The notes under the pieces were generated by a model, which had not been told where the DNA came from, searched no databases, and saw only the letters and a list, made by a program, of their open reading frames with translations. Positions 3 to 63,999 of a DNA stretch of 64,000 nucleotides are shown here, piece after piece. Location of the stretch: the NCBI GenBank assembly GCA_000002435.2, contig CM018790.1; one strand, given 5' to 3'. Both the position numbers and the translations under genes were made by a program. How positions within the stretch are numbered: the stretch's first letter is position 1; every line of letters begins with the position of its first letter. The DNA is from Giardia intestinalis (taxonomy: Eukaryota).

Positions 3-3000
3 TCTTTATCCAATACACTGTCTGAGCCACTTGATAACGTTAACATTAGGGAGCCTGCACCTAAACTAGGTCCTGAACTACACAACTCAGAACCAGAACC
101 AGATGCAAATGCAAATGCAGAATTAGAAGCAAGCAATCAACAGGCACATGCGACCAAGGTAGTGTATGATGCTCAAGGAGATGTTGTTGAGATTGAAGGG
201 CTGCCAGCAGATCTTTACCCAGAGCTCATTATAGACTCCTTGTTGCACAACGACGACGTTGCCTTCCCCCGCTTTTCTAGAGTCGATACTATTGAAGCCG
301 AGCGAGCAAATCTGCCCTCTTTTGGCATGCAGTATTCTTTTCTCGAGCTACTGGGGAAGACAGATGTCCTGTTGATCAAGGGCTCGACTGGCTCTGGAAA
401 ATCGACCCAGATACCTCAGTTTCTTCTAGAGGGTGGATACTCATCTCTTGCATATCCTTATATGATGGCTGGAGCTTCCTGTCTTAAGCCCCAAAGGGAC
501 GCGCGGTATGGCTATGGGGGAAAGATTGTTGTGACCCAGCCACGACGCATTGCAGCTATTGGTGTAAGCAGTCGCATTGCAGAGGAGCTTGGACAAGCTG
601 TTGGGGACACTGCAGGCTATGTTATCAAGCAAAACAGTCGTGTCGACAACGGCGGAAAAGACAGCACCAGAGTGGTATTTGTAACAGAGGGTGTTTTACT
701 CAAGATGATAGAGGCAGATTTTTTGGTGTCTGACACGTCTATCATCATACTGGACGAAGCCCATGAGCGCACCATTAACCTAGATCTGCTTATAGGATTA
801 TTAGGAAGGATATGTGCTGCCAGACGATCTCTCTTTAACAACTGGTTGGCGAAATATAAAGATTTAATTCTCAATCTAACTTCCCAGTACACTAACTTCT
901 GCTCTGAGCCTAACTCACAGAAATCTAGAAATGGAAGGGTGTTTGGGGACGTTGGAGGGGGAGATGCCCTGGCTGCACAGCGATATTATGAAAAGGATAG
1001 GGACGCAGAACAAGAAGAGCAGGATGAAGATGAAGATGAGGATGACGAAGGGGAGAATGAAGAAGACGAAGAAGATAGCGAAGATCCAGATACTAGTAAT
1101 GAATCTATATCATGTCGTGAGACAACTGACTTGTCAAAGCTTACATTCCAGCGCTCTCGGTCGTTCTTTCAAGCAGCATTCTCGGAAAAGGAGGACCTAT
1201 CGCTGCCTGAGTACTTTGACTCAAAAGAATATACCACCCTTTTGAAAGAGTTCGCTGTGCTGTGCCGTGATCCGCCTCCAGCAACGCCACTAAAACTTAT
1301 AATCATGTCTGCCACGCTCCATCAAAAGGAGCTTTTAGAAAACGATGCACTGTTTCATTGCAAACCGTTAGTATTCGAGATCCCTATGCGTACATATCCT
1401 GTTGCCATTCACTACGAAATTGCGACAGAGCCCAATTATGTGCAAGCTGCAATCGACAAGGCGATTACGATACACAAATACTATGATCCAGGGTCAATAC
1501 TCATATTCCTAAGTGGAAAGAGAGAAATAGAGAGGTGCATAGATGGCCTTAACAGTAACTTGCTCCATAAAGGCACGCACGTGGAGAAGAAACACAATGA
1601 TAAAGCGCTGCGTAAACACCTCCATGACAAGCGTGCGTACAGAGACACTTTTGATAATACCATATTCGACCCAGTACAAGATGTAAGTGATGACGACGGA
1701 GAAGAAGGATATGAGTCTAATCCTGTACTAAGAATGCTCCAGGACTACGCTAACGAGGTCAAGGGAGAAGCACGACGAAACGAGCTAGAGGCCGCAGACC
1801 GATCTGTAGAGCCTTCACAACCTCTAACGCAAAACAGCCCAGCGTTCACGACTAACGACGCCATCTTCAACACATATAACACCGTGCTAACTTCAAATAA
1901 GATATCCAGCACAGGTCAGCAACAGGATGAACAAGAGGTTGAGCAGTTGATAAAAGAGTTTAAGGAATGCGAGGCGCAAAGGCACACAGGAGTCGTCAAG
2001 GCTGCACCTCCAGAACCTATAATCTTGCCGCTCTATGGAACCCTTGATATTGTCGAACAGTCTCGAATATTCTCTAAAGAATACCAAGACAAGGCTAAGC
2101 ACCGTCTTATTATTGTGTCTACAAACGTGGCAGAAGCGTCAATCACTATCCCCAACATTCGATATGTAGTGGACGCTGGCAAGGCAAAGGAGAAACAAGA
2201 GTACAATGCAGTTACCGCCCTCACTGTGCAGTTCATTTCAAAGGCAAATGCGGACCAGCGTGCTGGACGAGCTGGGAGAACAGCGCCAGGTCACTGCTTC
2301 CGGCTGTATTCTCCTGGCTTGTTTCAACGAATGCACGACTTTCCTGTTCCAGAGATCCTGCGCTTGCCTATAACAGGGCTTATTCTTGCAATGCTGAAAC
2401 TAGGGGCGTCAGATGTTCGGTCCTTCCCGTTTGTGACCCACCCAGGACCTGACAGACTTGACAAGGCACTTGCAGAGCTCGTAGTGCTGGATGCTATTCG
2501 AGAAAGGTCGGGGACCACGACCCTTATCGATCTGTACACCGGATCCTTCATCTCTACGGATAAAGAGAGTGGCACTAACACAAAGACCACCAAAACAAAC
2601 TATGCTCTTTCAAAGTTGGGCAACTTAATGGCTGCAATTCCCCTTTGTCCGAGGATGAGCAAGCTAGTCGTCAAGTCAGTGTTGTACTTCCACAAACAGC
2701 CCACAGCCCACGGGTCCTCATTTCTCATATATGCCGTTCTTCTTGCTAGTGGCTACTACAGTCAGCTGTCCACGATTGCGCCCATTCGCTGGCCCGTCAC
2801 AAGCGGCAGTGGGGATGCCCTCTCAAAGCTATTCACCATCTGTGCTCTTCTTTGCTTCAAGGATAAGCACTCTGCGTCGCGCTTTTGTAAGGAGTACTGT
2901 CTGCGCTATGACGAAGCGCATCAGGTACTTACCACCGCCATACAGATCTTCAATATCATTAATATCCCCCCATTCGATGATCTTTTCAAACAAGTGTATG

Positions 3001-4148
3001 CGCAGGCTCCCAATAAGGAGGTGATAATGTCGACTATAAAGGTGACAACGCCGGCCACATTTACCCCGGAGCTTAGAATGGTCATCAATTGGCTTCTGAT
3101 GCAGTCCTTTCCAGACCAGCTTGCATTCAGAGAATCCACAGACAGCGGGAAATATATCTTTCAAGGTGTGTCGGCCCGTGAACTCCTGAAAACGCCTAGT
3201 GAATACAGGGACCTGCAAGCGGTCGACAAGATACAGGGGAGTAACCGGTTCAACTTGACAACCCAGCAGGTAGACTTGTTCTTACAGTATAAGCCTTACA
3301 CAAACACTGGGGCCCTTTCTCACACGTCAGACATCTATTGCTGTGCTGATTCCATCCAGTCACTGCCACCTTGTGTCTTGTACACATCGGCTAGAGTAGA
3401 ACTCTACGTCAATAAGACGCTAGAGATGTCTGCGACCAACATTGAAGAAATCAAGAAGGCCCTTCGTATCTCTGTCCACTTGGAGGGCGTTGTGGAGGTT
3501 AGCAAAGCACTCCTCTGCCAAACACAGGACTTTCTGATCAGTCCGTGCTTCACTATGATGGAGCAAACCAAGCAGCGCTACGACAGACAAAAAGACATGC
3601 TGGTTGGGGAGTCCATGCTGCATTATGTGGGACTACCGTTGGTGGATGGGAGTAGCGAAGAGCCAGCTTTCTCCATGGGGTCCGTTCTTGTCGGATCTTG
3701 TACAGAGCTCTATCCGGGACGAAAGTACATTGATGAGCAACTGGAGGCAAAGATGTCCCCATGCATCCTGAGTACACTACTAAGATCTATCTATCACAGG
3801 AGGTTCCTGGCTGCAATTCTGGCAGGAGATATACTACCAGATCTTAAGTGCATCAGCGAAAAGGTCTCTGTGGCAATGAGGGATCTTTCAAATCCCCGCT
3901 GTAGGAAGTCCTCTAGAGAACTGGATATTGCTCTCCTCAACATACAGGAGTGTGAAGCTTACTCCAGGACTGGAATCATAAAGTATTATGAGGCACGCTG
4001 CGCAGGCCTGGACCAAAAACAACAGGAAGAACTAATAGGAAATGACCGCCTAACGACGAGCATCTCCCGCTGCTACAGGGCTGACTATAGCAAGGCATTT
4101 GTAGCCATTTGGAAGAGAAATGTTCAATTTATATTAAATGAAACCTGA
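3..4148 (+). CDS. DEAH-box RNA helicase, DHX37/Dhr1-like; 5' end runs off the window
   Basis: Walker A GSTGSGKSTQIPQF, motif II ILDEAHERT, motif III IMSATL, motif VI QRAGRAGR. The KLIIMSATL...LF...YPVAIHY and LPLYGTL patterns resemble Dhr1/DHX37. The ORF track starts at GTG 162, but I found no stop in that frame back to nt 3, so the true N-terminus lies upstream of the window. Confidence 0.9.
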   Translation, partial: SLSNTLSEPLDNVNIREPAPKLGPELHNSEPEPDANANAELEASNQQAHATKVVYDAQGDVVEIEGLPADLYPELIIDSLLHNDDVAFPRFSRVDTIEAERANLPSFGMQYSFLELLGKTDVLLIKGSTGSGKSTQIPQFLLEGGYSSLAYPYMMAGASCLKPQRDARYGYGGKIVVTQPRRIAAIGVSSRIAEELGQAVGDTAGYVIKQNSRVDNGGKDSTRVVFVTEGVLLKMIEADFLVSDTSIIILDEAHERTINLDLLIGLLGRICAARRSLFNNWLAKYKDLILNLTSQYTNFCSEPNSQKSRNGRVFGDVGGGDALAAQRYYEKDRDAEQEEQDEDEDEDDEGENEEDEEDSEDPDTSNESISCRETTDLSKLTFQRSRSFFQAAFSEKEDLSLPEYFDSKEYTTLLKEFAVLCRDPPPATPLKLIIMSATLHQKELLENDALFHCKPLVFEIPMRTYPVAIHYEIATEPNYVQAAIDKAITIHKYYDPGSILIFLSGKREIERCIDGLNSNLLHKGTHVEKKHNDKALRKHLHDKRAYRDTFDNTIFDPVQDVSDDDGEEGYESNPVLRMLQDYANEVKGEARRNELEAADRSVEPSQPLTQNSPAFTTNDAIFNTYNTVLTSNKISSTGQQQDEQEVEQLIKEFKECEAQRHTGVVKAAPPEPIILPLYGTLDIVEQSRIFSKEYQDKAKHRLIIVSTNVAEASITIPNIRYVVDAGKAKEKQEYNAVTALTVQFISKANADQRAGRAGRTAPGHCFRLYSPGLFQRMHDFPVPEILRLPITGLILAMLKLGASDVRSFPFVTHPGPDRLDKALAELVVLDAIRERSGTTTLIDLYTGSFISTDKESGTNTKTTKTNYALSKLGNLMAAIPLCPRMSKLVVKSVLYFHKQPTAHGSSFLIYAVLLASGYYSQLSTIAPIRWPVTSGSGDALSKLFTICALLCFKDKHSASRFCKEYCLRYDEAHQVLTTAIQIFNIINIPPFDDLFKQVYAQAPNKEVIMSTIKVTTPATFTPELRMVINWLLMQSFPDQLAFRESTDSGKYIFQGVSARELLKTPSEYRDLQAVDKIQGSNRFNLTTQQVDLFLQYKPYTNTGALSHTSDIYCCADSIQSLPPCVLYTSARVELYVNKTLEMSATNIEEIKKALRISVHLEGVVEVSKALLCQTQDFLISPCFTMMEQTKQRYDRQKDMLVGESMLHYVGLPLVDGSSEEPAFSMGSVLVGSCTELYPGRKYIDEQLEAKMSPCILSTLLRSIYHRRFLAAILAGDILPDLKCISEKVSVAMRDLSNPRCRKSSRELDIALLNIQECEAYSRTGIIKYYEARCAGLDQKQQEELIGNDRLTTSISRCYRADYSKAFVAIWKRNVQFILNET

Positions 4149-12542: not shown

Positions 12543-15245
12543 CTACGCCTTCCCGCGGCAGAGGAACCACCAACACAAGAAGCCCACAAGACCACCTACA
12601 ACAACGATCACAGCAACAGAGATGCCCGCGATCGCGCCAGTGCTGAGCCCGCTCTTGTTGACGCTTCCGCCGTTGTCAGTGCCATCCGTCTTGACGTAGC
12701 AGATGACAGAACCACTATTACCAGTTGGAGGATCGCAGCTTGCGCAGTTAGCGACACCCTGGATGCTACCGCTTGTCTCTGTACACAGCTTGCATGCTTT
12801 ACTGGCGTCCAAGTAACGGCCAGGTGGACAGGCGCTGCACTTATCGGGTTGATTGGCCACGGTGCATGTGGCACAAGTGGAATCGCATAATGGACACATG
12901 TTCGAGACAGCTGTCAAGCCATTCGCACATGTTTGGCATTTTCCATCCCCAGTGGGCGTTGTGCAGATGCTCTTCCCGGGGAGCCTGTCAGTCTTGTAGC
13001 ATCCGCCCTCCTGGATGAAGTATCCGGCGGCGCAGACCGTGCAAGCACCGTTAGCGGCAGTGGTGCAGAACAGAGTCCTGGCCGCATTGCTCGTGCAGAC
13101 GCCATTGAGCGGCACGTTGCTCCCCTTGCACTTCGAGCAGTACTTGGTACCTCCAATTGTTAGGCCGCACGTCTCGCACTCCGGGCCTTCCACGCATTGC
13201 TCCACGCACGTGCCGCCCTCATTAAGCTTGCTTTCGTCGGCGTACCTCAGCATCTTCCCGGCGGGACAGGCCGTGCACTTGGAAGCGCCGGCCCCGCTGC
13301 ACTCCGCACAGGAGGGGTCGCAGGGCGCGCACGTTTGTCCGGATAGATACGTTCCGACAGGGCAGGCATCTAAGCATGCCTTCTTCGTCGGGGTCAGATG
13401 CTTGCCTGGTTCACACGCCTCGCAAGTCTGCTTGTCCGAGGAGCACGTCTGGCAGTTCTCGATCGGGCAGTCGGCCGGCGCTGGGTTGCACGCCCTGTTA
13501 TCCCCGCTGGCCACGAATCCCGGCTTGCACGCCTCGCACGTCGCCTTGTCCGAGGAGCACGTCTGGCAGTTCTCGATCGGGCAGTCGGCCGGCGCTGGGT
13601 TGCACGCCCTGTTATCCCCGCTGGCCACGAATCCCGGCTTGCACGCCTCGCACGTCGCCTTGTCCGAGGAGCACGTCTGGCAGTTCTCGATCGGGCAGTC
13701 GGCCGGCGCTGGGTTGCACGCCCTGTTATCCCCGCTGGCCACGAATCCCGGCTTGCACGCCTCGCACGTCGCCTTGTCCGAGGAGCACGTCTGGCAGTTC
13801 TCGATCGGGCAGTCGGCCGGCGCTGGGTTGCACGCCCTGTTATCCCCGCTGGCCACGAATCCCGGCTTGCACGCCTCGCACGTCGCCTTGTCCGAGGAGC
13901 ACGTCTGGCAGTTCTCGATCGGGCAGTCGGCCGGCGCTGGGTTGCACGCCCTGTTATCCCCGCTGGCCACGAATCCCGGCTTGCACGCCTCGCACGTCGC
14001 CTTGTCCGAGGAGCACGTCTGGCAGTTCTCGATCGGGCAGTCGGCCGGCGCTGGGTTGCACGCCCTGTTATCCCCGCTGGCCACGAATCCCGGCTTGCAC
14101 GCCTCGCACGTCGCCTTGTCCGAGGAGCACGTCTGGCAGTTCTCGATCGGGCAGTCGGCCGGCGCTGGGTTGCACGCCCTGTTATCCCCGCTGGCCACGA
14201 ATCCCGGCTTGCACGCCTCGCACGTCGCCTTGTCCGAGGAGCACGTCTGGCAGTTCTCGATCGGGCAGTCGGCCGGCGCTGGGTTGCACGCCCTGTTATC
14301 CCCGCTGGCCACGAATCCCGGCTTGCACGCCTCGCACGTCGCCTTGTCCGAGGAGCACGTCTGGCAGTTCTCGATCGGGCAGTCGGCCGGCGCTGGGTTG
14401 CACGCCCTGTTATCCCCGCTGGCCACGAATCCCGGCTTGCACGCCTCGCACGTCGCCTTGTCCGAGGAGCACGTCTGGCAGTTCTCGATCGGGCAGTCGG
14501 CCGGCGCTGGGTTGCACGCCCTGTTATCCCCGCTGGCCACGAATCCCGGCTTGCACGCCTCGCACGTCGCCTTGTCCGAGGAGCACGTCTGGCAGTTCTC
14601 GATCGGGCAGTCGGCCGGCGCTGGGTTGCACGCCCTGTTATCCCCGCTGGCCACGAATCCCGGCTTGCACGCCTCGCACGTCGCCTTGTCCGAGGAGCAC
14701 GTCTGGCAGTTCTCGATCGGGCAGTCGGCCGGCGCTGGGTTGCACGCCCTGTTATCCCCGCTGGCCACGAATCCCGGCTTGCACGCCTCGCACGTCGCCT
14801 TGTCCGAGGAGCACGTCTGGCAGTTCTCGATCGGGCAGTCGGCCGGCGCTGGGTTGCACGCCCTGTTATCCCCGCTGGCCACGAATCCCGGCTTGCACGC
14901 CTCGCACGTCGCCTTGTCCGAGGAGCACGTCTGGCAGTTCTCGATCGGGCAGTCGGCCGGCGCTGGGTTGCACGCCCTGTTATCCCCGCTGGCCACGAAT
15001 CCCGGCTTGCACGCCTCGCACGTCGCCTTGTCCGAGGAGCACGTCTGGCAGTTCTCGATCGGGCAGTCGGCCGGCGCTGGGTTGCACGCCCTGTTATCCC
15101 CGCTGGCCACGAATCCCGGCTTGCACGCCTCGCACGTCGCCTTGTCCGAGGAGCACGTCTGGCAGTTCTCGATCGGGCAGTCGGTCGATACTGATGTACG
15201 GTGAGCCTGTGTCACTGTAAAAACTAGGAGAAATCCTACCAACAT
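12543..15245 (-). CDS. Variant-specific surface protein (VSP) with 38-aa tandem repeats
   Basis: N-terminal signal peptide MLVGFLLVFTVTQA, numerous CXXC motifs, a GGCY motif (IQEGGCYKTD), and a C-terminal TM helix followed by the invariant tail CRGKA. The start context cTAATGTT is Inr-like. Confidence 0.97.
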   Translation of the reverse strand: MLVGFLLVFTVTQAHRTSVSTDCPIENCQTCSSDKATCEACKPGFVASGDNRACNPAPADCPIENCQTCSSDKATCEACKPGFVASGDNRACNPAPADCPIENCQTCSSDKATCEACKPGFVASGDNRACNPAPADCPIENCQTCSSDKATCEACKPGFVASGDNRACNPAPADCPIENCQTCSSDKATCEACKPGFVASGDNRACNPAPADCPIENCQTCSSDKATCEACKPGFVASGDNRACNPAPADCPIENCQTCSSDKATCEACKPGFVASGDNRACNPAPADCPIENCQTCSSDKATCEACKPGFVASGDNRACNPAPADCPIENCQTCSSDKATCEACKPGFVASGDNRACNPAPADCPIENCQTCSSDKATCEACKPGFVASGDNRACNPAPADCPIENCQTCSSDKATCEACKPGFVASGDNRACNPAPADCPIENCQTCSSDKATCEACKPGFVASGDNRACNPAPADCPIENCQTCSSDKATCEACKPGFVASGDNRACNPAPADCPIENCQTCSSDKATCEACKPGFVASGDNRACNPAPADCPIENCQTCSSDKATCEACKPGFVASGDNRACNPAPADCPIENCQTCSSDKQTCEACEPGKHLTPTKKACLDACPVGTYLSGQTCAPCDPSCAECSGAGASKCTACPAGKMLRYADESKLNEGGTCVEQCVEGPECETCGLTIGGTKYCSKCKGSNVPLNGVCTSNAARTLFCTTAANGACTVCAAGYFIQEGGCYKTDRLPGKSICTTPTGDGKCQTCANGLTAVSNMCPLCDSTCATCTVANQPDKCSACPPGRYLDASKACKLCTETSGSIQGVANCASCDPPTGNSGSVICYVKTDGTDNGGSVNKSGLSTGAIAGISVAVIVVVGGLVGFLCWWFLCRGKA
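13432..15184. repeat. Perfect tandem repeat, 114-bp unit x about 15.4 copies, inside the VSP CDS
   Basis: The unit cttgtccgaggagcacgtctggcagttctcgatcgggcagtcggccggcgctgggttgcacgccctgttatccccgctggccacgaatcccggcttgcacgcctcgcacgtcgc recurs every 114 nt. It encodes ADCPIENCQTCSSDKATCEACKPGFVASGDNRACNPAP. All three plus-strand frames give identical translations in every unit, so the copies are identical or nearly so at nucleotide level. Confidence 0.97.
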
Positions 15246-52383: not shown

Positions 52384-54600
52384 TTACTTCGTATTACTGC
52401 ATGGTACTGATCTCAAAAGAAGCGTGACGATGTGTTGTACCTTGACGAAGTCAACACGAGAGAATTGTCCTCTTCCACAGGCAGCTATCAAAAGAGAGGC
52501 AACACTGGCTGCATATTCTGGACCCTCGTGTTCCGCAATAAGACTAACAGCTTCCTTGTTCAGTGCAAAGGCAGACAACTCCAGAGCAGTCTCGCCAGCC
52601 ACAGAACACCGCCCTCCCTCATAAGGAAGTAACAAACATATGTGTTCAATGCACCCTACTTGCGACGCGTACATCAACGCTGTAATACCAGCGGGCGTGC
52701 ACCTGCCCGCCTCTCCCGCCTCGATCAACGCCTTGCACTCGTTCTGCAGGGTCTTACCAGATTGACAAACGCACATGAGAGATGTATTCTGTTCAGCATT
52801 TACCATGCCTGCTTCAATAGATAGCAAAGTAGTATACAAATTGACTAAAGCGTCTACACCCAAGAGGCACGCCTTTGTTAAAAGACCGCGGCGCGATGCG
52901 ATAATAAGAGCGGTGTCTCCAGTGAAAAGGGCATGAAACGAGGCCATGTGAAGTAAGCGACATGCATTTTTAGCCAGCTGAGCAAGTGCTTCGGGATCCT
53001 CCTCCGATTCCGCCATAACGAGCAGAGATTGTAGCATAGTCAGCCCAGTTTGGATTCGTACAAGTTCATGATTCGCTAGGTAGTTTGCGACAGCGCGATA
53101 CCCTCTCTGCATGGCGAAAGTTCCTGCAGTAGTACCATCCTCCGTCATTGTTCCAGCATATTGATCTACAAGCCCAATGACTGCTTGCTCCAGCCCGTTT
53201 AGTGCAGCATACATTAGAGGTGTATAGGCATGCTTTGAAGGTGGTAGAAAGACAGTGGTAGAGGGTGATCTTATAACAGGGCAGCGACGAGTGCCATAAT
53301 GAATGATCCGATTGATTGTCGACGCGGAAATATCTGTTAGATAAGTTGCACTGCTAGATAACCTAGATATGTCTATCAGTGCCTGTACAGCGCTGGTGCC
53401 GTTCAGCCAAAGGTAGCGGAGCGCATACTGGCCATCATTGTCCATGGCATTGAGTGTATCAAGGTTCAACACACAAACCAGATCAAGCCAGCAAGCAGTA
53501 CTTACACGAAGAAAACCATTGATGGCCAAGCGATGCAAGGCCGTCATATTCTTTTGGTCTCTGCGGAGACCTTCGATGTGCAGCAGGAGCCGTGCTTGAG
53601 CCAAATCGCAAGCTTCTAGGGCACGCATATATCTAGTCACACCTTTGCTATCTACTTCCAAGACACCCATTTGTACATCGAGCACAGGTTGCAATGCCGC
53701 TCGCACGGTGTCGTAAGCAGCAGAAAAGTCTATGCGATGGACTGCAAATGGATTGGAAAGCGCCCGAAGCAGGTTAAAAAACCAATCTATTTGCGAAGTA
53801 TTCACGTAATTGTACAGTAACTGCACGCTTGATGAGTTCAGACCTTTGGTTATTTTCTGAACAACCAGGGAATGGAGATAGTGAACCGTGGCATGAAACT
53901 CAGATACGGTGGGAAATTTTAAGGCGACCTTTCTATTGGCAGCTAAGAGCTCTAAGCACAGCATACCCACCTTATGGAGCAGGACCTGAAGTCCACTTGC
54001 ACTGTCCCGCCGGGGCTTTGGTGTACTACACTGACCAGATATGAATTGGCTGAACTTAGGTTCCAACTTAATATACCCGTTGGGGGTCAGCCAGATATTC
54101 GATGGTGTTAAACAATCTGAAAATATGTGCCAGGGAAAGTCTGGCCAAGAGTTACATGAGCGGAGGTAATCGCAAAGACTGAGTAGCTGGACTAAAACGG
54201 AAAGGATAAGGTAAACTGGAAAAGGTCGAGATGCTTTTTTTCGAGAGTGGGTCAGCAACAGGTCAGTGAGCCGCACTGATCCAGTAGGGATCCAAGATGC
54301 AAGCATGAGGGTGTGGAGATAGCGACACGAAGACACCTTAACTACTGCTGGGAGGACTCGTTGTACCACTCCCTCAGACACGGATTGCTTCTGGAAGCTT
54401 GCTGCGCCGCAAAGGGGGAGAGTGTAATGACTAAGTGTTAGTGTAAGGTGGTAAGTCTTGAGCAAGACGCGAATCCCGGCTAGCTGCTTCTTTGTAGATT
54501 GTCTGATAATATGAGAAATATAACGTGGAGACCCATTAACTGCGGATAGAGCGTAGGCCTCTAGCGGACCTGCAAACGCTACGAAAATGTGACGTGTCAC
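52384..54600 (-). CDS. NEK-like pseudokinase + ankyrin-repeat protein (Protein 21.1 class); start codon unresolved
   Basis: The N-terminal kinase-like fold lacks HRD/DFG (SNIWLTPNGYIKLEPKFSQF). It is followed by at least 6 ankyrin-type units (MTALHRLAINGF, YTPLMYAALNGLEQAVIGLV, GDTALIIASRRGLL, NTSLMCVCQSGK, GITALMYASQVGCIEHICLLL, GETALELSA). The frame opens after a stop at 54613-54615 and has no in-frame ATG for about 98 codons. The ORF-track start is a GTG. Confidence 0.75.
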   Translation of the reverse strand: MTRHIFVAFAGPLEAYALSAVNGSPRYISHIIRQSTKKQLAGIRVLLKTYHLTLTLSHYTLPLCGAASFQKQSVSEGVVQRVLPAVVKVSSCRYLHTLMLASWIPTGSVRLTDLLLTHSRKKASRPFPVYLILSVLVQLLSLCDYLRSCNSWPDFPWHIFSDCLTPSNIWLTPNGYIKLEPKFSQFISGQCSTPKPRRDSASGLQVLLHKVGMLCLELLAANRKVALKFPTVSEFHATVHYLHSLVVQKITKGLNSSSVQLLYNYVNTSQIDWFFNLLRALSNPFAVHRIDFSAAYDTVRAALQPVLDVQMGVLEVDSKGVTRYMRALEACDLAQARLLLHIEGLRRDQKNMTALHRLAINGFLRVSTACWLDLVCVLNLDTLNAMDNDGQYALRYLWLNGTSAVQALIDISRLSSSATYLTDISASTINRIIHYGTRRCPVIRSPSTTVFLPPSKHAYTPLMYAALNGLEQAVIGLVDQYAGTMTEDGTTAGTFAMQRGYRAVANYLANHELVRIQTGLTMLQSLLVMAESEEDPEALAQLAKNACRLLHMASFHALFTGDTALIIASRRGLLTKACLLGVDALVNLYTTLLSIEAGMVNAEQNTSLMCVCQSGKTLQNECKALIEAGEAGRCTPAGITALMYASQVGCIEHICLLLPYEGGRCSVAGETALELSAFALNKEAVSLIAEHEGPEYAASVASLLIAACGRGQFSRVDFVKVQHIVTLLLRSVPCSNTK

Positions 54601-54866
54601 AGGCCCAGAATTTTACGGATTGAGATAGGGCCGACAAGCGTGAAAAAAATGTGTTGCAGCATTTGTAAAATAAAAACAGAAGATTTTAAAGGGCAGTTTA
54701 ACATTTCAATGAACTACTATTAGAAAAACCGTGCTATCTACTGGTTGTGTTCACTACTTTATGTGACAGAGGTATTTCGATAAAAGAATTTTCCCTCAGA
54801 GTCTAATTTCTTGGAAAAAAGTTGCTTTTACAGGCGTGAGATCTTTTGAAAACTGTTGAGAGCCAA

Positions 54867-58336: not shown

Positions 58337-58843
58337 ATGCAAGCAATCAACTTGTCTGATCTCCCCCCAGACGCGCGCATTGAGAATGAGCGATCGATAG
58401 AAGAGAGGTGGGCGGAGACGGCTGCGAAGTATGCCGAGATAATAGAAAAGCTTCTAGTTTCTGCAGGCCGCAAATCAATAGATCACCTTCACCGGATGCG
58501 CTTTACTCCCATGGATAATGAGATGTACCGGATCTTCAGAACAGCATTTCCTGAGCTGAATGTTAAGTGCATTGATGTGGCCAGTCTGAAGTCTGCAGAA
58601 GAAAAGGCGAAGTGGTATTTGATATTGGAGAGCTGGAAGGATTCTCTCAAGGATTACAATACGGGAACACTTTTAAGAATTGACTGCGCCGCCCCCCTTT
58701 CCCCAGAGAATTCCTGCATCGTTCCTCGCAGTCAGTTCTATTGCATAGAGATTGCGCGCTGCCGTGAGGGTCTAAATGATGAGTTCGTCCAGTCAGTTAT
58801 CGATGGAAGGCAGACCACTGCGAAGCTCGATTCACATGCATGA
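58337..58843 (+). CDS. PBDC1 (polysaccharide biosynthesis domain-containing 1 / CXorf26) family protein
   Basis: LKSAEEKAKWYLILESWKDSLKDYNTGTLLRIDCAAPLSPENSCIVPRSQFYCIEIARCREGLND aligns with human PBDC1 (LKSESAKEKWRPFCLKFNGIVEDFNYGTLLRLDCSQGYTEENTIFAPRIQFFAIEIARNREGYN). Confidence 0.85.
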   Translation: MQAINLSDLPPDARIENERSIEERWAETAAKYAEIIEKLLVSAGRKSIDHLHRMRFTPMDNEMYRIFRTAFPELNVKCIDVASLKSAEEKAKWYLILESWKDSLKDYNTGTLLRIDCAAPLSPENSCIVPRSQFYCIEIARCREGLNDEFVQSVIDGRQTTAKLDSHA

Positions 58844-58896: not shown

Positions 58897-59757
58897 ATGT
58901 GTACGTGCTTTTCCAATATTAGGTCCATCACCCCTGGCCCAGGAAGCTATGAGGCAACACCGTTCAGCGTCTACAAGCCTCGCACACCGTCGGTTCACAT
59001 CTCTACGCGGCTGAAGAGTGGCAAGCGCGATGGCCCGGGGCCGGGAAGATATGATTTCAACGAGCTTTCTTCTTCGTTTCTGTCGGGTATACAGAGCCAC
59101 AATTCCTCTCAGCAACTAACCAAGGCTCAGCTGACCCGAGCTCATCTGTCAGACTTTGGAGGAACGCAGTCAGGGATGCTAAGCGCGGATAGCTCTTACC
59201 TGAGTGCTACAATGAGTAGATCGACCACCCCGATCCTCATATACTCAGAGGACATGCAGACAACGGCCCAGACCGAACTAAGCAGGAGCAGCACCCACAC
59301 TAAGGCACCAGCACACTCCTTTGGCGCTTGTGGTCGCTCAGCAGGGGGGCCGTTTGACGTTAGATACGCCATGGATTTCTCGAACATAGGACCGAAATAC
59401 ACCCCCAAAACGTCCCTTACTAAGACGGCAAGCCCTGCTATACACATCGGGTCGCGGCTTCCAGACCTTTCCGCGCGGTCTAATACCCCCGGGCCTGGGA
59501 GTTACTCCCTAGACAGAAATCCGGACTTTTCGGTACAATCTAGAGCAGATATCATTAGGAGGCGTGCCCTTCTTGCATCTCGCTCCAAGAGACAGGCTGA
59601 TAACGTTGCTAGTTCAGTGTCTGAGAAGTTTATACCAGAAGCCTCCAAGCCGCGAAGCTACTGTCCTCATCTCTCAACAACTATACTACCAAGCGTCCGA
59701 GGCCCTGCATTTACCCTTTCCAGTCGCACGCCCCTGCGGATTTTCGGCCAGTATTAG
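58897..59757 (+). CDS. STPG / SHIPPO-repeat (sperm-tail PG-rich) protein, upstream ORF
   Basis: Repeated PGPGxY motifs (TPGPGSYEA, GPGPGRYDF, TPGPGSYSLD) alternate with P.F[ST] segments (GPAFTLSSRTP). ATG start at 58897. The ORF ends at TAG 59755-59757. Confidence 0.85.
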   Translation: MCTCFSNIRSITPGPGSYEATPFSVYKPRTPSVHISTRLKSGKRDGPGPGRYDFNELSSSFLSGIQSHNSSQQLTKAQLTRAHLSDFGGTQSGMLSADSSYLSATMSRSTTPILIYSEDMQTTAQTELSRSSTHTKAPAHSFGACGRSAGGPFDVRYAMDFSNIGPKYTPKTSLTKTASPAIHIGSRLPDLSARSNTPGPGSYSLDRNPDFSVQSRADIIRRRALLASRSKRQADNVASSVSEKFIPEASKPRSYCPHLSTTILPSVRGPAFTLSSRTPLRIFGQY

Positions 59758-59955
59758 CCGCAGAGTTAAAAATCCACGCCCACTTTCTTTGATTGTATTA
59801 AGGGCTCTACCCCAGGCCCTGGATCGTATGATGTCCCGGTACTGGATTTTATACAGCCATCTACCCCATCATTTAGCATAGGCTTGAAGCACCCTACTCC
59901 AAGGGATTTGACTCCGGGCCCAGGAACATACAACGTAAACCAGGGGGACGAAGCA

Positions 59956-61260
59956 ATGCGTAAGGGCCCCAAGAACCTCACTATTGGAGTTAAGCTACCA
60001 GACCATCACATACAGGAGACTCCAGGACCAGGGACCTATGAAACCCAACGGGCTTTTGAGGTAAAGCCAAAGGCACTCTCGTTCTCCGACAGGCATGCAG
60101 ATCCTTATGAGCAAGAACGCCTAATGACGCCGAGTCCGACACGTTACAACCCGTCTTTATCCCTGAAGCAGGTTCAGGATAAGGTTTTGCCATGCACGTT
60201 CAAGTCCAGCGTGACTCCACGAGGCCCATTTGATGATCTGGCCCACACGCCAGGTCCGTCAGCATACTCTGTCAATGACAGCATGACAACACCTCGTGCA
60301 AGCAGGGCTTGTATCGGAAATAAGCAACCGGTTAGCTATGACAATCAGGTCCCTGGCCCTGGTTCATATGATAATGTTATGAAAGAGTACATAGAGATGA
60401 CGACACCATCATCTCCTGCTTTCACTCTGCACGGGAAGCTTGAACACGGCGGACCATTTGACGTTCATGCGGTGAGGGAATATGCCTCCGTAGGCCCAGG
60501 AACATACACACTGGACAAGCTCGTTAGCAACGGCGGACTTATTTTGCCCCACGCTGCCAATCTTTCTGGTAGACATCCCGATCCTCTCGAAAGGGAAAAA
60601 CAGCTTACGCCAGGCCCGGGCTCATATTTCAAGGAAGGCGCTGGCGCACAGACAACTCCGCAATACGATCCGCTGGGGACCAAGGGATGCAAATTTGGAG
60701 TACGGCCTGCAGATCTTACCTTCATCTCATCACAGTCTGGATTAGGAACACATGATAATACTGCCGTGGGTCCAGGGACTTACACACCTAGATCAGTGAC
60801 TCCGCGCACTCCTGGGGGCGTACTGAGCTTCAAGCACGCAAATCCTTTACGAACCCTTGGAGATGGGCCTGGTAAATATGATATTAGCAGCGCAGTTACC
60901 GCAACGCTTCCCTCGTCACCGCAGCCGACTATGCATAACGGTCGGGCCAACGACTTAAACAGCCCATTTACAACCCGCTTTGATTGCAGCTGCCTAGGTG
61001 GGCCTGGTACATATGCTTTGGGGGAGAAGCTTCGAGGTAGTAGGCTTCGGGGTGCGCGCGCACTGATCTCTAGCGACACTTCACGAGGGTCTTCTAGTGG
61101 TAGGGTAGGCCCATCAATTGGGATACGATATACACGGATACGGCAGCAGAATACTCCTGGGCCGGGTGAGTATGACATATCTTCAGCGCCGCGTGGACCC
61201 TCGTTCTCATTTAGATCCCGCACCCCTTTGGCGGTAGGAACAGGTGAGCCTATGAAGTAA
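59956..61260 (+). CDS. STPG / SHIPPO-repeat protein, downstream ORF (first ATG 59956; frame open and repeat-bearing from 59770)
   Basis: Many PGPGxY units (TPGPGTYNV, TPGPGTYET, VPGPGSYDN, SVGPGTYTLD, TPGPGSYFK, AVGPGTYTP, GDGPGKYDI, LGGPGTYAL, TPGPGEYDI). It is in the same reading frame (frame 1) as the upstream STPG ORF. One further unit (STPGPGSYDV...STPSFSIG) lies in-frame at 59809-59880, before any ATG. Confidence 0.8.
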   Translation: MRKGPKNLTIGVKLPDHHIQETPGPGTYETQRAFEVKPKALSFSDRHADPYEQERLMTPSPTRYNPSLSLKQVQDKVLPCTFKSSVTPRGPFDDLAHTPGPSAYSVNDSMTTPRASRACIGNKQPVSYDNQVPGPGSYDNVMKEYIEMTTPSSPAFTLHGKLEHGGPFDVHAVREYASVGPGTYTLDKLVSNGGLILPHAANLSGRHPDPLEREKQLTPGPGSYFKEGAGAQTTPQYDPLGTKGCKFGVRPADLTFISSQSGLGTHDNTAVGPGTYTPRSVTPRTPGGVLSFKHANPLRTLGDGPGKYDISSAVTATLPSSPQPTMHNGRANDLNSPFTTRFDCSCLGGPGTYALGEKLRGSRLRGARALISSDTSRGSSSGRVGPSIGIRYTRIRQQNTPGPGEYDISSAPRGPSFSFRSRTPLAVGTGEPMK

Positions 61261-61278
61261 TACTGCTACTCCCTTCTG

Positions 61279-63999
61279 TCAATCCTCTATCTCCATGACC
61301 CCATCATACCACTGCTTCGGTGGAAGGTTCTTGGAGTATGGGTTGCCAAATGCTATTTTCAAACCCTCAAGCTTTATTCTAACAGTCTTACTAATGGCCT
61401 TTCCGACCTGCCCAACCGATTGGTAGACGTCTATAACGTTGCAGAATTCGCTGGAGTAGAATAGCAGACTGTCTGTCAGCTCAATAAAGGCAAGCATTAA
61501 GTCATCGCGCAACGACAGGGTAGAGAGCCACTCAGCCTTCTCCGCAAACCACTTTTGGATGTCTAGTACGATATAGTTAAAAACGTTCTTGAAATACGTG
61601 CCTGCAAGCTGTTCCGACCACCCATATACACGGGCAAGGCTGGTATAGAGCGAAAATGTACTTAGCGCCAGCTTCAACACCTCAGTACGCAGAAGAGCGC
61701 TTCTCTCTGGCCTTTTTATATAATCTTTTCCGACAGCAGGAGCTCCCGCAGCTTGCTCCAAACTGGCCACTTCACTTGTGTAATTTTCAGGGAGGACTCC
61801 GTAGATGTTCCCTCCAACAATTACATAATCCTTGAACACCTTGCAGGTAAATGCCAGGAGATTGCAACCTGCAAACACCTCATTAGTGAGAAGGTGCAAG
61901 TGGTCCTTGAGGGCTAGGCGCTTCTGCTGAATGAAGAAGGCATCGAGGGGCTTTGCAGGGGGGTCCGAGAGGGCCTTGATGTGAGCAGTCACGATGCTGT
62001 CGAGGGTCATGGTTGCATTAACGAGAATGTTAAAGACACGCAAAAAAGCATAAATATCGTCGCCTTCCACCTTGATTTCAAAGGAGTCCGGATTGATGAC
62101 CTTTGGAAAGACCTTCTCCAGCGTATATGTGCACCCGCAGTTAGCAACAAAGATCTGCCACATGCGCTCGTCACTCACTGCATTGCTTATTCCGTCAATT
62201 ATCAGGTCTGTATGTATGTTCCCATGTATATAGGACTGCAGGAAGTACTTTCGAAGTTCTGGATTCAGCGACAGCTTCTTGGTACGGAGGGCATTGACAA
62301 CTATCGTGAGAGCAACCTCGTGATATTGTGAGCTATTAAATAAGCAGAGAAGCATTGACTGGGAGTTGATCAATCGGTGGTAGCTTCCAACAATGGCCTC
62401 CGTAAAGAGAGCAATCTCGTCAGACCTCACCATTTCGCCCATAAATAGGCCAACTTCCTGTATGTCCCTAGTGATCTTTACAAAAATGGGCTCTGGTGCC
62501 GCAGACTGCATCTGGGTGGGGTCTATGATTTTGCCATCTTCCTGAGGTTTGACAGATTCGGAAACCTTGGTGCTAGGGAGCCGCAACATGAAAGACACAG
62601 ATTCCTTGATGTAAGCGTCTATCGTGGTGCATGTGTTGAAGAATCCATATGCTCTTCCACGCTCTAAACTTACAGATAGAATAGTTGCAGCGGCGTGTCG
62701 AATGTATCTGAAGAACTCAATTGCATAGTTAAATAACTGTAAGTTGTCCTTACCGTGCACTTTTGCCAACTCTGTGCTCCCCTCTGGTATCTCATTAAAG
62801 AGAGAAAAGTTATGTGTGTCTTTTAGAAGATTCATAATTGCAAATGTAAGCCCCTTTACCTTACGAGTGGTGTCAGAAATGTAGAATAAGTGATCGCGAA
62901 CGAGGTGATGCGCTGGATGGTTAAGCACGCAAGCGGTGATGCCTAGAAGTAACTTGGACATTTGTATGTATTCGGGGTTAAGCTGAAAGAACGAAGGGCT
63001 TCCCTTCTTGTCAGCAGTTGTGATTTGCTGTTGGAGCATGGCCTGGTCGATTCCCTCTATCCGTATCAGTTTCGTCTCACTCTCTTGTGCTGTGGCTGCA
63101 CCCTGTGCGGCATCAGCACCTTTGGCATCAGAAGACGGTCTCTCCGAGACTTGCTTTTGTGATTGGTGAAGGTTGGTCAGCATAGCTGTTTCATAGAGCT
63201 CTCGGGGCGGTACTGTATTAAAAGCGGTGTTGGCAAGAGCAAACAAGCAAGACTCCAGATTGAGCACCATGCGGCGGCTCAAGTAGAACGGCACGTGAGG
63301 CTTTGTATATGACTGGTAAAACTCATCGAGCACCTGGAGCGAGGGAATAGACTTGAAGCTGTTCCTGATGTTTATGCTATTTCCCTGTAGCATGTTCGCC
63401 TTCAAGACCTGGGCACAGATGTCGAGATAGACGTGAATGGCCCCTGACAGAAGTGTAAACGCGTTTATGTATGCTGCACGGAACAAGATCTCTCTTTTTT
63501 CCTTGGTTCTTATCGTCTTAAGCCGGGTCCTAGAGGCCTCTAAGACAGACTCGAGCTTGCTCTGGGGATAGTCAGTTATGGAAAGAGTAGACATGATATG
63601 GATGTCCAGATTCTTCACCTTTGTGAGCCGCGCTTGTAATTCTCGTATGTTTTGTCCGGGGAGGCGATTAAGGTAGTATTTGTCGATTGCGTTGGAGCGG
63701 TCTCCCTCTGCCTCCATGCCCATGGATATAATAGAGGTGTAGTCGCTCAGCAGCGAAGGTGCATCATTGACTATCCGACTGCAATCTACTATAGTATTTT
63801 GGACAACTCTACGCAAGTCAATCTTAGGTTCAGAAGATGACTCCGTTAATATGCGATAAAAATTGTGATTGGTTGCAGTGGACGGGTTCTTGAGTACATT
63901 AAACGTATTGAAATCGAAAAAGAATAGCAGAGCTAAGGCTAGGCATAGATACGGCTTCAAAATAGTTGCCTCAGAGTTAATGTAGAAGAACAGGAACGT
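61279..63999 (-). CDS. Large hypothetical protein; 5' end probably beyond the window
   Basis: The ORF of at least 893 aa has a TTG as its ORF-track start (63960). The frame stays open to the right edge of the window (no stop through 63999). It begins with a hydrophobic leader-like segment (KPYLCLALALLFFF). No family recognised. Confidence 0.8.
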   Translation of the reverse strand, partial: TFLFFYINSEATILKPYLCLALALLFFFDFNTFNVLKNPSTATNHNFYRILTESSSEPKIDLRRVVQNTIVDCSRIVNDAPSLLSDYTSIISMGMEAEGDRSNAIDKYYLNRLPGQNIRELQARLTKVKNLDIHIMSTLSITDYPQSKLESVLEASRTRLKTIRTKEKREILFRAAYINAFTLLSGAIHVYLDICAQVLKANMLQGNSINIRNSFKSIPSLQVLDEFYQSYTKPHVPFYLSRRMVLNLESCLFALANTAFNTVPPRELYETAMLTNLHQSQKQVSERPSSDAKGADAAQGAATAQESETKLIRIEGIDQAMLQQQITTADKKGSPSFFQLNPEYIQMSKLLLGITACVLNHPAHHLVRDHLFYISDTTRKVKGLTFAIMNLLKDTHNFSLFNEIPEGSTELAKVHGKDNLQLFNYAIEFFRYIRHAAATILSVSLERGRAYGFFNTCTTIDAYIKESVSFMLRLPSTKVSESVKPQEDGKIIDPTQMQSAAPEPIFVKITRDIQEVGLFMGEMVRSDEIALFTEAIVGSYHRLINSQSMLLCLFNSSQYHEVALTIVVNALRTKKLSLNPELRKYFLQSYIHGNIHTDLIIDGISNAVSDERMWQIFVANCGCTYTLEKVFPKVINPDSFEIKVEGDDIYAFLRVFNILVNATMTLDSIVTAHIKALSDPPAKPLDAFFIQQKRLALKDHLHLLTNEVFAGCNLLAFTCKVFKDYVIVGGNIYGVLPENYTSEVASLEQAAGAPAVGKDYIKRPERSALLRTEVLKLALSTFSLYTSLARVYGWSEQLAGTYFKNVFNYIVLDIQKWFAEKAEWLSTLSLRDDLMLAFIELTDSLLFYSSEFCNVIDVYQSVGQVGKAISKTVRIKLEGLKIAFGNPYSKNLPPKQWYDGVMEIED

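What the first reader, a model, noticed from the sequence alone, without database searches (positions are those of the whole stretch)
59740..59960. Two STPG/SHIPPO ORFs are in the same frame, separated only by two in-frame stops, with repeats continuing before any ATG
Seen: ORF 58897-59757 and ORF 59884-61260 are both in frame 1. The junction reads ...SSRTPLRIFGQY-TAG-PQS-TAA-KSTPTFFDCIKGSTPGPGSYDVPVLDFIQPSTPSFSIGLKHPTPRDLTPGPGTYNV... So a complete PGPGxY/P.F[ST] unit (59809-59880) and part of another lie in-frame downstream of the stops but upstream of the first ATG (59956). Inference: this was, or still is, one gene of about 788 codons. The possibilities are a recent double-nonsense split, stop-codon read-through, non-AUG reinitiation, or sequencing error. 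I found no Giardia-type intron (GTATGT...ACTAACACACAG) spanning the stops.
Basis: seen in the sequence. Interest (0 to 1): 0.6.

Follow-up and report, generated by a model that had tools for sequence, protein, structure and literature searches.

The report
Giardia gene starting at ACG, not ATG
The two Giardia ORFs are two old neighbouring genes rather than one split gene, and the second appears to begin at a conserved ACG codon where the Giardia muris gene has ATG, so its true start is missing from every reference annotation.

Summary
In this Giardia intestinalis WB window, GL50803_9086 (58897-59757) and GL50803_14861 share a frame. They are separated by TAG (59755) and TAA (59767), and SHIPPO-repeat coding runs for 60 codons before the first ATG (59956).

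The "one gene" reading fails.
- The stop after ...RIFGQY is kept in five G. duodenalis lineages and in G. muris.
- The stop-to-ACG spacer is 21/22/23/22/23 nt, so the ORFs are in frame only in assemblage A.
- G. muris has the same two tandem genes, each with its own ATG and stop.

This rules out read-through, a recent nonsense split and sequencing error. No intron with canonical borders restores the frame in all lineages.

What is unusual is the start of the downstream gene.
- Purifying selection (omega 0.06-0.11) begins exactly at ACG 59776.
- ACG is invariant in all lineages and aligns without gaps to Met1 of G. muris GMRT_15873.
- No ATG is conserved: codon 61 is absent in B and E, and codon 117 is absent in one other lineage.
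- The spacer holds an invariant GAG(A)TTAAAAA that matches the Giardia transcription-initiator consensus, predicting a leader of about 8 nt.

Best explanation: the downstream gene has its own promoter and initiates at ACG on a short-leader mRNA. This is inferred from sequence. No transcript or peptide data were available.

The parts
58897..59757 (+). Upstream gene GL50803_9086 (286 aa, SHIPPO/STPG repeats), including its stop TAG at 59755-59757
   Evidence: ORF, Pfam PF07004, identity to GL50803_009086. Orthologues of 286-291 aa all end ...RIFGQY*. The G. muris orthologue (440 aa) aligns Met1 to Met1 and ends at the homologous ...CIFDHI*.
59755..59775 (+). Intergenic spacer of 21 nt in WB, counted from the stop codon to the base before ACG. 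It contains both of the 'in-frame stops'.
   Evidence: Spacer lengths are 21 (A), 22 (E), 23 (B), 22 (L004) and 23 (L002), and 28 nt in G. muris. All indels fall here and are not multiples of three. The 5' half is variable (CCGCA/CTGTG/GTCGCG/TCACA/CCACA).
59763..59773 (+). Conserved AT-rich element GAG(A)TTAAAAA[T/G], the predicted transcription initiator of the downstream gene. The TAA at 59767-59769 is part of it.
   Evidence: GAG(A)TTAAAAA is invariant in all five lineages, whereas only 13% of four-fold sites are invariant across them. It is one mismatch from AAATTAAAAAT, a top TSS-seq consensus variant, and from AATTAAAAA of Holberton and Marshall (PMC3792122). Function as a promoter is inferred and was not measured.
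59776..59778 (+). ACG, the proposed initiation codon of GL50803_14861
   Evidence: Invariant in all five G. duodenalis lineages. It aligns without gaps to ATG/Met1 of G. muris GMRT_15873. It is the first near-cognate codon after the in-frame TAA. All spacer indels lie 5' of it, and the synonymous-only variation starts immediately 3' of it.
59776..59955 (+). Sixty codons of N-terminal coding sequence missing from the WB annotation (TPTFFDCIKGSTPGPGSYDV...NQGDEA)
   Evidence: omega is 0.058-0.108 against 0.051-0.106 after the ATG. Variable columns by codon position are 15/13/48. There are no stops in frame and 3-4 in each other frame. It contains the best Pfam SHIPPO repeat.
59956..59958 (+). 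ATG currently annotated as the start in WB; this is internal Met61
   Evidence: The codon is ATA in assemblage B and ACA in assemblage E. The first ATG there is codon 117, and codon 117 is Leu in L002.
59776..61260 (+). Proposed full downstream gene (494 codons plus TAA at 61258-61260)
   Evidence: Collinear with G. muris GMRT_15873 from residue 3 to residue 490 of 494, E = 2e-89. The length is 494 codons in all five lineages.
59745..59760 (+). Possible 4-bp hairpin (CGGC/GCCG) around the stop codon of 9086; uncertain
   Evidence: RNAalifold shows two pairs with changes on both sides, but they come from a single phylogenetic split. Weak evidence; its function is unknown.

Best explanation
These are two separate, anciently tandem SHIPPO-repeat genes. 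The upstream gene (GL50803_9086) ends at TAG 59755. The 21-nt spacer carries an AT-rich Giardia initiator (GAGTTAAAAAT, 59763-59773), from which the downstream gene (GL50803_14861) is transcribed with a leader of about 8 nt. Translation of that mRNA starts at ACG 59776. This near-cognate codon replaced the ancestral ATG before the G. duodenalis assemblages diverged, and it gives a 494-residue protein whose first 60 residues (116 in the assemblage B and E annotations) are missing from current annotations. The shared frame and the 'two in-frame stops' are accidents of the 21-nt spacer length in assemblage A. What is shown: the two-gene architecture, the conserved stop, the variable frame, coding constraint from ACG onward, the lack of any conserved ATG, and the homology of ACG to the ATG of the outgroup. 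What is inferred: the transcription start in the spacer, and decoding of ACG by initiator tRNA.
For: (1) The stop after RIFGQY is conserved in A, E, B, L004 and L002 and is homologous in G. muris. (2) Spacer lengths of 21/22/23/22/23 nt put the ORFs in frame only in A. (3) G. muris has PBDC1, SHIPPO-A (440 aa) and SHIPPO-B (518 aa), with a 28-nt stop-to-ATG spacer. (4) BLASTP aligns the window translation from ACG against GMRT_15873 as 3-490 to 3-515 with no N-terminal offset, E = 2e-89, so codon 1 ACG corresponds to Met1. A second homologue, P0186, also starts at that position. (5) omega before the ATG is 0.06-0.11, equal to omega after it, at dS of 0.9-2.3. In the first 11 codons, six of the seven variable codons change only synonymously. 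(6) Met61 is absent in B and E and Met117 is absent in L002. (7) In four of the five lineages an in-frame TAA lies two codons before ACG, and the codon just before ACG varies freely as TCC/GTC/CCC. (8) GAG(A)TTAAAAA is invariant, while only 13% of four-fold sites are, and it matches the TSS-seq initiator consensus (PMC3792122). Other genes in the window have similar A-rich tracts 3-25 nt before their ATG. (9) Giardia mRNAs have 1-14 nt leaders and the ribosomes are reported not to scan (PMC3610916). A cap-proximal near-cognate codon is therefore a plausible start.
Against: I had no transcript 5' end, ribosome footprint or peptide for this locus. The TSS-seq supplements do not list it, and the stored RNA-seq table is truncated. 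I found no published case of non-AUG initiation for a cellular Giardia gene. The invariant third base of ACG has about a 13% chance of being invariant even if the codon were an ordinary Thr codon. The AT-rich element could instead, or also, be the polyadenylation signal of the upstream gene (AGTTAA-like). ACG is usually an inefficient start in scanning eukaryotes.
Confidence: 0.65

Rival explanations
1. C-to-U RNA editing converts ACG to AUG in the mRNA, so initiation is canonical at the RNA level, as happens for some plant organelle start codons.
For: It would explain the strict conservation of ACG, rather than any Thr codon, at the position of the ancestral ATG.
Against: To my knowledge no mRNA C-to-U editing is known in Giardia. 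Among all close relatives in the protein collection there is no 494-aa product starting with M-PTFF, such as would be called on an edited or ATG-bearing contig. However, it is unclear how many of those contigs derive from RNA.
Confidence: 0.05
2. The two ORFs are on one bicistronic mRNA. After terminating at TAG 59755, ribosomes re-initiate 21 nt downstream at the non-AUG codon (coupled termination and re-initiation).
For: The spacing between stop and restart is short and conserved at 18-20 nt. The flanks are conserved, and there may be a small hairpin at the stop.
Against: The conserved element matches the transcription-initiator consensus rather than any known re-initiation signal. In G. muris the downstream gene has an ordinary A-rich context with its own ATG. 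Re-initiation would still need a non-AUG start, so it adds a step without removing the difficulty.
Confidence: 0.1
3. A very short non-canonical intron (for example 27 nt, 59751-59777, GT...AC) is removed, fusing the two ORFs into one protein of about 780 aa in all lineages.
For: Any excision that covers the whole spacer restores the frame in every lineage, because all the indels lie inside it. GTATTA at 59751 resembles the Giardia 5' splice site GTATGT. A GT-AC excision of 27 nt or 33 nt is conserved in position.
Against: No GT-AG, GC-AG or AT-AC excision near the junction is conserved. The only conserved ones with an AG 3' border (CT-AG of 69 and 87 nt, AT-AG of 63 nt) lack the Giardia splice motifs and would delete constrained codons on both sides. 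There is no CTRACACACAG branch/3' motif. A survey of 70 transcriptomes lists no intron in either gene (PMC10711314). In G. muris the junction is a normal stop, spacer and ATG, and the sequence after the spacer is a family N-terminus.
Confidence: 0.04
4. Stop-codon read-through of TAG and TAA makes a 788-aa fusion protein, at least in assemblage A where the frames coincide.
For: The ORFs share a frame in WB and in L001.
Against: The frames differ in B, E, L004, L002 and G. muris. The spacer evolves as non-coding sequence with non-triplet indels. Two stops would have to be read through. The downstream protein is conserved equally well in lineages where read-through cannot work.
Confidence: 0.03
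5. The N-terminal region is not translated, and the protein starts at the first downstream ATG, as currently annotated.
For: This is the current annotation in WB, GS and P15. Logan contig L010 happens to begin 12 nt before ATG 59956.
Against: omega is 0.06-0.11 over the 60 pre-ATG codons at saturated dS. The annotated ATGs are not conserved between assemblages. The region is homologous to the translated N-terminus of the G. muris protein. Contig ends are not transcript ends.
Confidence: 0.05

Closest known systems
Exclusive non-AUG initiation of cellular eukaryotic genes (for example GUG of eIF4G2/DAP5, AUU of TEAD1, ACG/UUG starts of yeast ALA1/GRS1 isoforms; my own knowledge, and the review PMC5666671 listed)
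   Same: A near-cognate codon stands where relatives have AUG. Coding constraint extends upstream of the first AUG, and the near-cognate codon is conserved across lineages.
   Different: Those cases work through scanning with a Kozak context and long leaders. Here the predicted leader is about 8 nt, in an organism reported not to scan, so position next to the cap would define the start rather than context. There is no experimental proof here.
Giardia AT-rich initiator / short-leader gene architecture (Holberton and Marshall AATTAAAAA; TSS-seq consensus, PMC3792122)
   Same: The spacer element GAG(A)TTAAAAAT is one or two mismatches from the listed consensus variants. It sits a few bases before the first codon, as it does in ordinary Giardia genes.
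   Different: The codon that follows is ACG, not ATG.
Programmed stop-codon read-through
   Same: In assemblage A only, there is an in-frame stop followed by conserved coding sequence.
   Different: The frame is not conserved between lineages. There are two stops, the spacer is non-coding, and the downstream sequence is an independent N-terminus.
Giardia cis-spliced introns (GTATGT ... CTRACACACAG; PMC10711314)
   Same: The site starts with a GTAT-like sequence and would be very short, like the 29-41 nt Giardia introns.
   Different: There is no conserved AG (or AT-AC) border that restores the frame, no branch/3' motif, and the transcriptome survey did not find it.
SHIPPO / STPG (sperm-tail PG-rich, ODF3/CIMAP1-like) repeat proteins
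   Same: Both genes match Pfam PF07004 with multiple PGPGxY ... PxFS units. Homologues are widespread in ciliated and flagellated eukaryotes.
   Different: They form a Giardia-specific tandem pair with a shared N-terminal motif. Their localisation and function were not examined here.

Membership tests
SHIPPO/STPG repeat proteins (Pfam PF07004) | Score above the Pfam gathering threshold for SHIPPO-rpt | tested here: met
   upstream ORF 48.8 bits and downstream 114.3 bits against a cut-off of 20.
Programmed stop-codon read-through | Upstream and downstream ORFs in the same frame in orthologues | tested here: not met
   Spacers of 21/22/23/22/23 nt, and 28 nt in G. muris. The ORFs are in frame only in assemblage A.
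Programmed stop-codon read-through | Coding constraint starts immediately after the stop, in the upstream frame | tested here: not met
   The 5' half of the spacer is variable with non-triplet indels. Constraint starts at ACG.
Single gene recently split (nonsense mutations or gene fission) | The outgroup or other lineages carry one continuous ORF | tested here: not met
   All five G. duodenalis lineages and G. muris have two ORFs with a homologous stop.
Spliceosomal intron, Giardia type | Conserved GT/CT-AG (or AT-AC) borders whose removal restores the frame, plus the GTATGT and CTRACACACAG motifs | tested here: not met
   An exhaustive enumeration within +/-45 nt found only GT-AC or other non-canonical borders near the junction. 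The only conserved excisions with an AG 3' border (CT-AG of 69 and 87 nt, AT-AG of 63 nt) lack both motifs and would delete constrained codons. No motif is present, and the locus is not in the RNA-seq survey.
Non-AUG (near-cognate) translation initiation | Purifying selection on in-frame codons upstream of the first AUG | tested here: met
   omega 0.058-0.108 over 60 codons; codon-position variability 15/13/48.
Non-AUG (near-cognate) translation initiation | A conserved near-cognate codon at the 5' limit of the constrained region, with no in-frame AUG available | tested here: met
   ACG is invariant. A TAA lies two codons upstream in four of five lineages, and no ATG is conserved.
Non-AUG (near-cognate) translation initiation | The near-cognate codon is homologous to AUG in relatives | tested here: met
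   Ungapped alignment to Met1 of G. muris GMRT_15873. P0186 starts at the same position.
Non-AUG (near-cognate) translation initiation | Direct evidence: initiating ribosome footprints, an N-terminal peptide, or mutational analysis | not testable with these tools
   No ribosome-profiling or peptide data for Giardia were reachable.
Giardia AT-rich initiator promoter | Match to the AT-rich TSS consensus a few nt upstream of the first codon | tested here: met
   AGATTAAAAAT against AAATTAAAAAT is one mismatch; WB GAGTTAAAAAT has two. The motif alone is not enriched in the window: 6 matches against 3.7 expected. Conservation is the evidence.
Giardia AT-rich initiator promoter | A mapped capped 5' end at the element | not testable with these tools
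   The TSS-seq supplements held do not list this locus.

The most novel reading that the evidence does not exclude
A conserved Giardia protein has been made solely from an ACG start codon since before the G. duodenalis assemblages diverged, on an mRNA with a leader of about 8 nt. That would mean that in this non-scanning eukaryote the start site is set mainly by distance from the cap. AUG would then be dispensable, and other Giardia genes may likewise be annotated from the wrong, downstream ATG.
Probability: 0.5. Interest if true: 0.7.

Novelty: new member of a known kind. Interest (0 to 1): 0.55.

Why it matters
If confirmed, this would be, as far as I could find, the first cellular Giardia gene shown to use a non-AUG start. 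It would be a natural test case for how an organism with 1-14 nt leaders and no scanning picks its start codon. On the practical side, it shows that the gene model is truncated by 60 residues in WB and by 116 in GS and P15, and that the apparent 'split gene' is an artefact of spacer length in assemblage A. It also gives a simple comparative recipe for finding further mis-started genes: constraint upstream of the first ATG, an initiator motif, and an outgroup ATG.

Tried and rejected
- **Introns.** I enumerated every excision within +/-45 nt that restores the frame in four lineages with identical border dinucleotides. No GT-AG, GC-AG or AT-AC candidate was conserved. Only GT-AC of 27 or 33 nt, and CT-AG or AT-AG excisions of 63-87 nt that would delete constrained codons, came out. 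The first, unfiltered enumeration was uninformative.
- **Known RNA families.** Rfam found nothing in 59400-60200 at E <= 1.
- **RNA structure.** The consensus fold of the junction gave only a weak 4-bp hairpin.
- **Bypassing.** Take-off and landing codons for ribosomal bypassing do not match. The second GTATTAR copy, at 59795, is not conserved in assemblage B and would land on a stop.
- **IRE1/XBP1-type splicing.** The CCGCAG resemblance exists only in WB.
- **Literature.** Searching for the gene identifiers gave 0 papers. The TSS-seq supplements do not list the locus. The Franzén RNA-seq table is truncated in storage. Li and Wang 2004 is not held.
- **Other loci and contigs.** P0164/L008 is a non-syntenic SHIPPO gene from another organism. 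Contig L010 starts near ATG 59956, but it is an error-prone assembly contig and says nothing about transcript ends. Looking for RNA-derived contigs through P0104 returned only genomic contexts.
- **Abandoned side check.** I looked briefly at another ORF with a long open stretch before its ATG (52384-54306, minus strand) and dropped it.
Full report
**Identity of the locus**

The window is Giardia intestinalis (duodenalis) WB, assemblage A. The ORF at 58897-59757 is exactly GL50803_009086 (286 aa). The product from ATG 59956 is exactly GL50803_0014861 (434 aa). The upstream neighbour is the PBDC1-family gene.

**Checking the observation**

Both ORFs are in frame 1, with TAG at 59755-57, TAA at 59767-69 and the first in-frame ATG at 59956.
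- Both halves match Pfam SHIPPO-rpt. In the translation from 59770, the best-scoring repeat lies at 59809-59895, upstream of that ATG.
- The junction is identical in independent read sets.
- The two exact proteins are recorded on 205 and 84 contigs. Sequencing error is therefore excluded.

**Comparative anatomy within G. duodenalis**

I fetched the orthologous locus from the following lineages:
- another assemblage-A-like isolate (L001)
- assemblage B (L003; GSB_152233/152234, GL50581_200)
- assemblage E isolate P15 (L006; GLP15_3247)
- two further lineages, 75-78% identical in protein (L002, L004/L005)

Synonymous divergence between lineages is 0.9-2.3, so neutral sites are close to saturation. 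Four facts follow.

1. **The stop is conserved.** The upstream ORF ends at the same place in every lineage (...SRTPLRIFGQY, then TAG or TAA).
2. **The frame is not conserved.** The stretch from the stop to an invariant ACG is 21, 22, 23, 22 and 23 nt in A, E, B, L004 and L002. Three independent single-base indels lie in it. The ORFs therefore share a frame only in assemblage A, which has lost one A in GAG(A)TTAAAAAT.
3. **The spacer has a variable half and an invariant half.** Its 5' half varies freely. Its 3' half, GAG(A)TTAAAAA, is invariant. Only 21 of 162 four-fold degenerate sites (13%) are invariant across the same five lineages, so 10-11 invariant bases in a row cannot be neutral.
4. 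**A coding signature starts exactly at ACG 59776.** In the first eleven codons, six of the seven variable codons differ only synonymously. Over the 60 codons up to the WB ATG, omega is 0.058-0.108, against 0.051-0.106 for the rest of the gene. Variable columns by codon position are 15/13/48.

The annotated ATG is not conserved either. It is ATA in B and ACA in E. The next Met, at codon 117, is Leu in L002. No single ATG could serve all lineages.

**The outgroup**

An exhaustive profile search found Giardia muris GMRT_15873 (518 aa, E = 9e-80). Its locus (L009) has PBDC1, then a 440-aa SHIPPO gene, then the 518-aa gene. The two SHIPPO genes are separated by TAG plus 25 nt.

- The 440-aa protein aligns with GL50803_9086 from Met1 to Met1. 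Its C-terminus (...RGPAFSMSGRTKMCIFDHI*) is homologous to ...RGPAFTLSSRTPLRIFGQY*.
- The 518-aa protein aligns with the window translation from ACG as residues 3-490 to residues 3-515, with no offset.
- At the N-terminus, MSTIFDSIRSDTPGPGRY lines up with (ACG)PTFFDCIKGSTPGPGSY. ACG 59776 is therefore the positional homologue of the G. muris ATG.
- The upstream genes begin with the same motif (MCTCFSNIRSITPGPG in WB, MATFFSEMQTISPGPG in G. muris). A further homologue, P0186, begins MPTIFDEVVATGPGP at the same alignment position.

The sequence after the spacer is thus a family N-terminus, not the middle of a repeat array. The pair is an old tandem duplication, not a split gene.

**What this rules out**

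- **Recent double-nonsense split:** the stop predates the split between G. muris and G. duodenalis.
- **Stop-codon read-through:** the frame is wrong in four of five lineages and in G. muris, the spacer is non-coding, and there are two stops.
- **Canonical intron:** an enumeration of all frame-restoring excisions with conserved borders found no GT-AG, GC-AG or AT-AC candidate. Near the junction there are only GT-AC or other non-canonical borders, plus longer CT-AG or AT-AG excisions that would remove constrained codons. There is no Giardia branch/3' motif, and a survey of 70 transcriptomes lists no intron in either gene.
- **Known RNA family:** none found.

**Most likely mechanism**

The invariant element matches the Giardia transcription-initiation consensus obtained by TSS-seq. 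The listed variants include AAATTAAAAAT, the earlier consensus is AATTAAAAA, and the major start is an A in the middle of the motif (PMC3792122). Other genes in the window have similar A-rich tracts 3-25 nt before their ATG.

Placing the start at the first A of AAAAA (59768) gives an 8-nt leader. That is inside the 1-14 nt range reported for Giardia, whose ribosomes are reported not to scan (PMC3610916). ACG is the first near-cognate codon after the in-frame TAA, and the only one conserved in frame.

I therefore propose that the downstream gene is transcribed from the spacer and translated from ACG, giving a 494-residue protein. The steps shown are the gene architecture, the selection pattern and the homology. 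The steps inferred are the transcription start and decoding of ACG by initiator tRNA.

The rivals that keep some weight are:
- termination and re-initiation on a bicistronic mRNA, which still needs a non-AUG start
- ACG-to-AUG editing
- a non-canonical mini-intron
- A-specific read-through at trace level
- translation from a downstream ATG only, as currently annotated

**Comparison with known systems**

Non-AUG initiation of cellular genes is well known in scanning eukaryotes. I found no report of it for a Giardia gene and no paper that mentions these gene identifiers. I classify this as a new member of a known kind. Its distinctive feature is that the start codon sits next to the cap in an organism reported not to scan.

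**Verdict**

The single-gene, read-through and split readings are rejected. The substantive result is a well-supported but experimentally untested conserved ACG start, together with a mis-annotated N-terminus in all Giardia reference genomes.

Noticed in passing
window 59745-59760: A 4-bp hairpin (CGGC / GCCG, loop CAGUAUUA) encloses the stop codon of GL50803_9086. Two pairs change on both sides between assemblages A/E and B/L004/L002, so that GGC goes with TAG and GGT/GAT goes with TAA. This is only one phylogenetic split, so the evidence is weak.
   Followed up: partly
window 59884-61260 and orthologues: Public annotations of the downstream gene disagree on its start: 434 aa in WB, 378 aa in GS and P15, and 458 aa in DH and BAH15c1, where TTG is read as Met. 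The DH entry ESU36758.1 is named 'Superfamily I DNA helicase', which nothing in the sequence supports.
   Followed up: partly
window 59751-59757 and 59795-59801: GTATTAR occurs twice, 44 nt apart, once at the stop of the upstream gene and once in codons 7-9 of the downstream gene. The second copy is not kept in assemblage B.
   Followed up: partly
L010 (Logan SRR26410989), equal to window 59944-61524: A 1580-nt contig with three homopolymer indels begins 12 nt before ATG 59956 and runs 264 nt past the stop. It could hint at a second, internal transcript start in assemblage A, but contig ends cannot be interpreted that way.
   Followed up: partly
L009 3138-3644 versus window 58337-58843: The PBDC1 gene next to the SHIPPO pair lies on the opposite strand in G. 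muris and on the same strand in G. duodenalis, which indicates a local inversion. The genes further out also differ between the two species.
   Followed up: no
window 12543-15245: A 900-aa ORF on the minus strand is overlapped almost fully by ORFs of 598-729 aa in plus-strand frames. I did not determine which strand is the real gene.
   Followed up: no
window 52384-54612 (minus strand) and 327-4148: Two other long ORFs have more than 100 open codons upstream of their first ATG. They could be checked the same way for mis-placed or non-AUG starts. The 327-4148 case may simply run off the window.
   Followed up: no
window 61279-63960 (minus strand): This ORF is the C-terminal part of a protein-kinase gene of about 1870 aa that continues beyond the window end. 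Its stop lies only 18 nt from the stop of the SHIPPO gene, so the convergent 3' ends must overlap.
   Followed up: no
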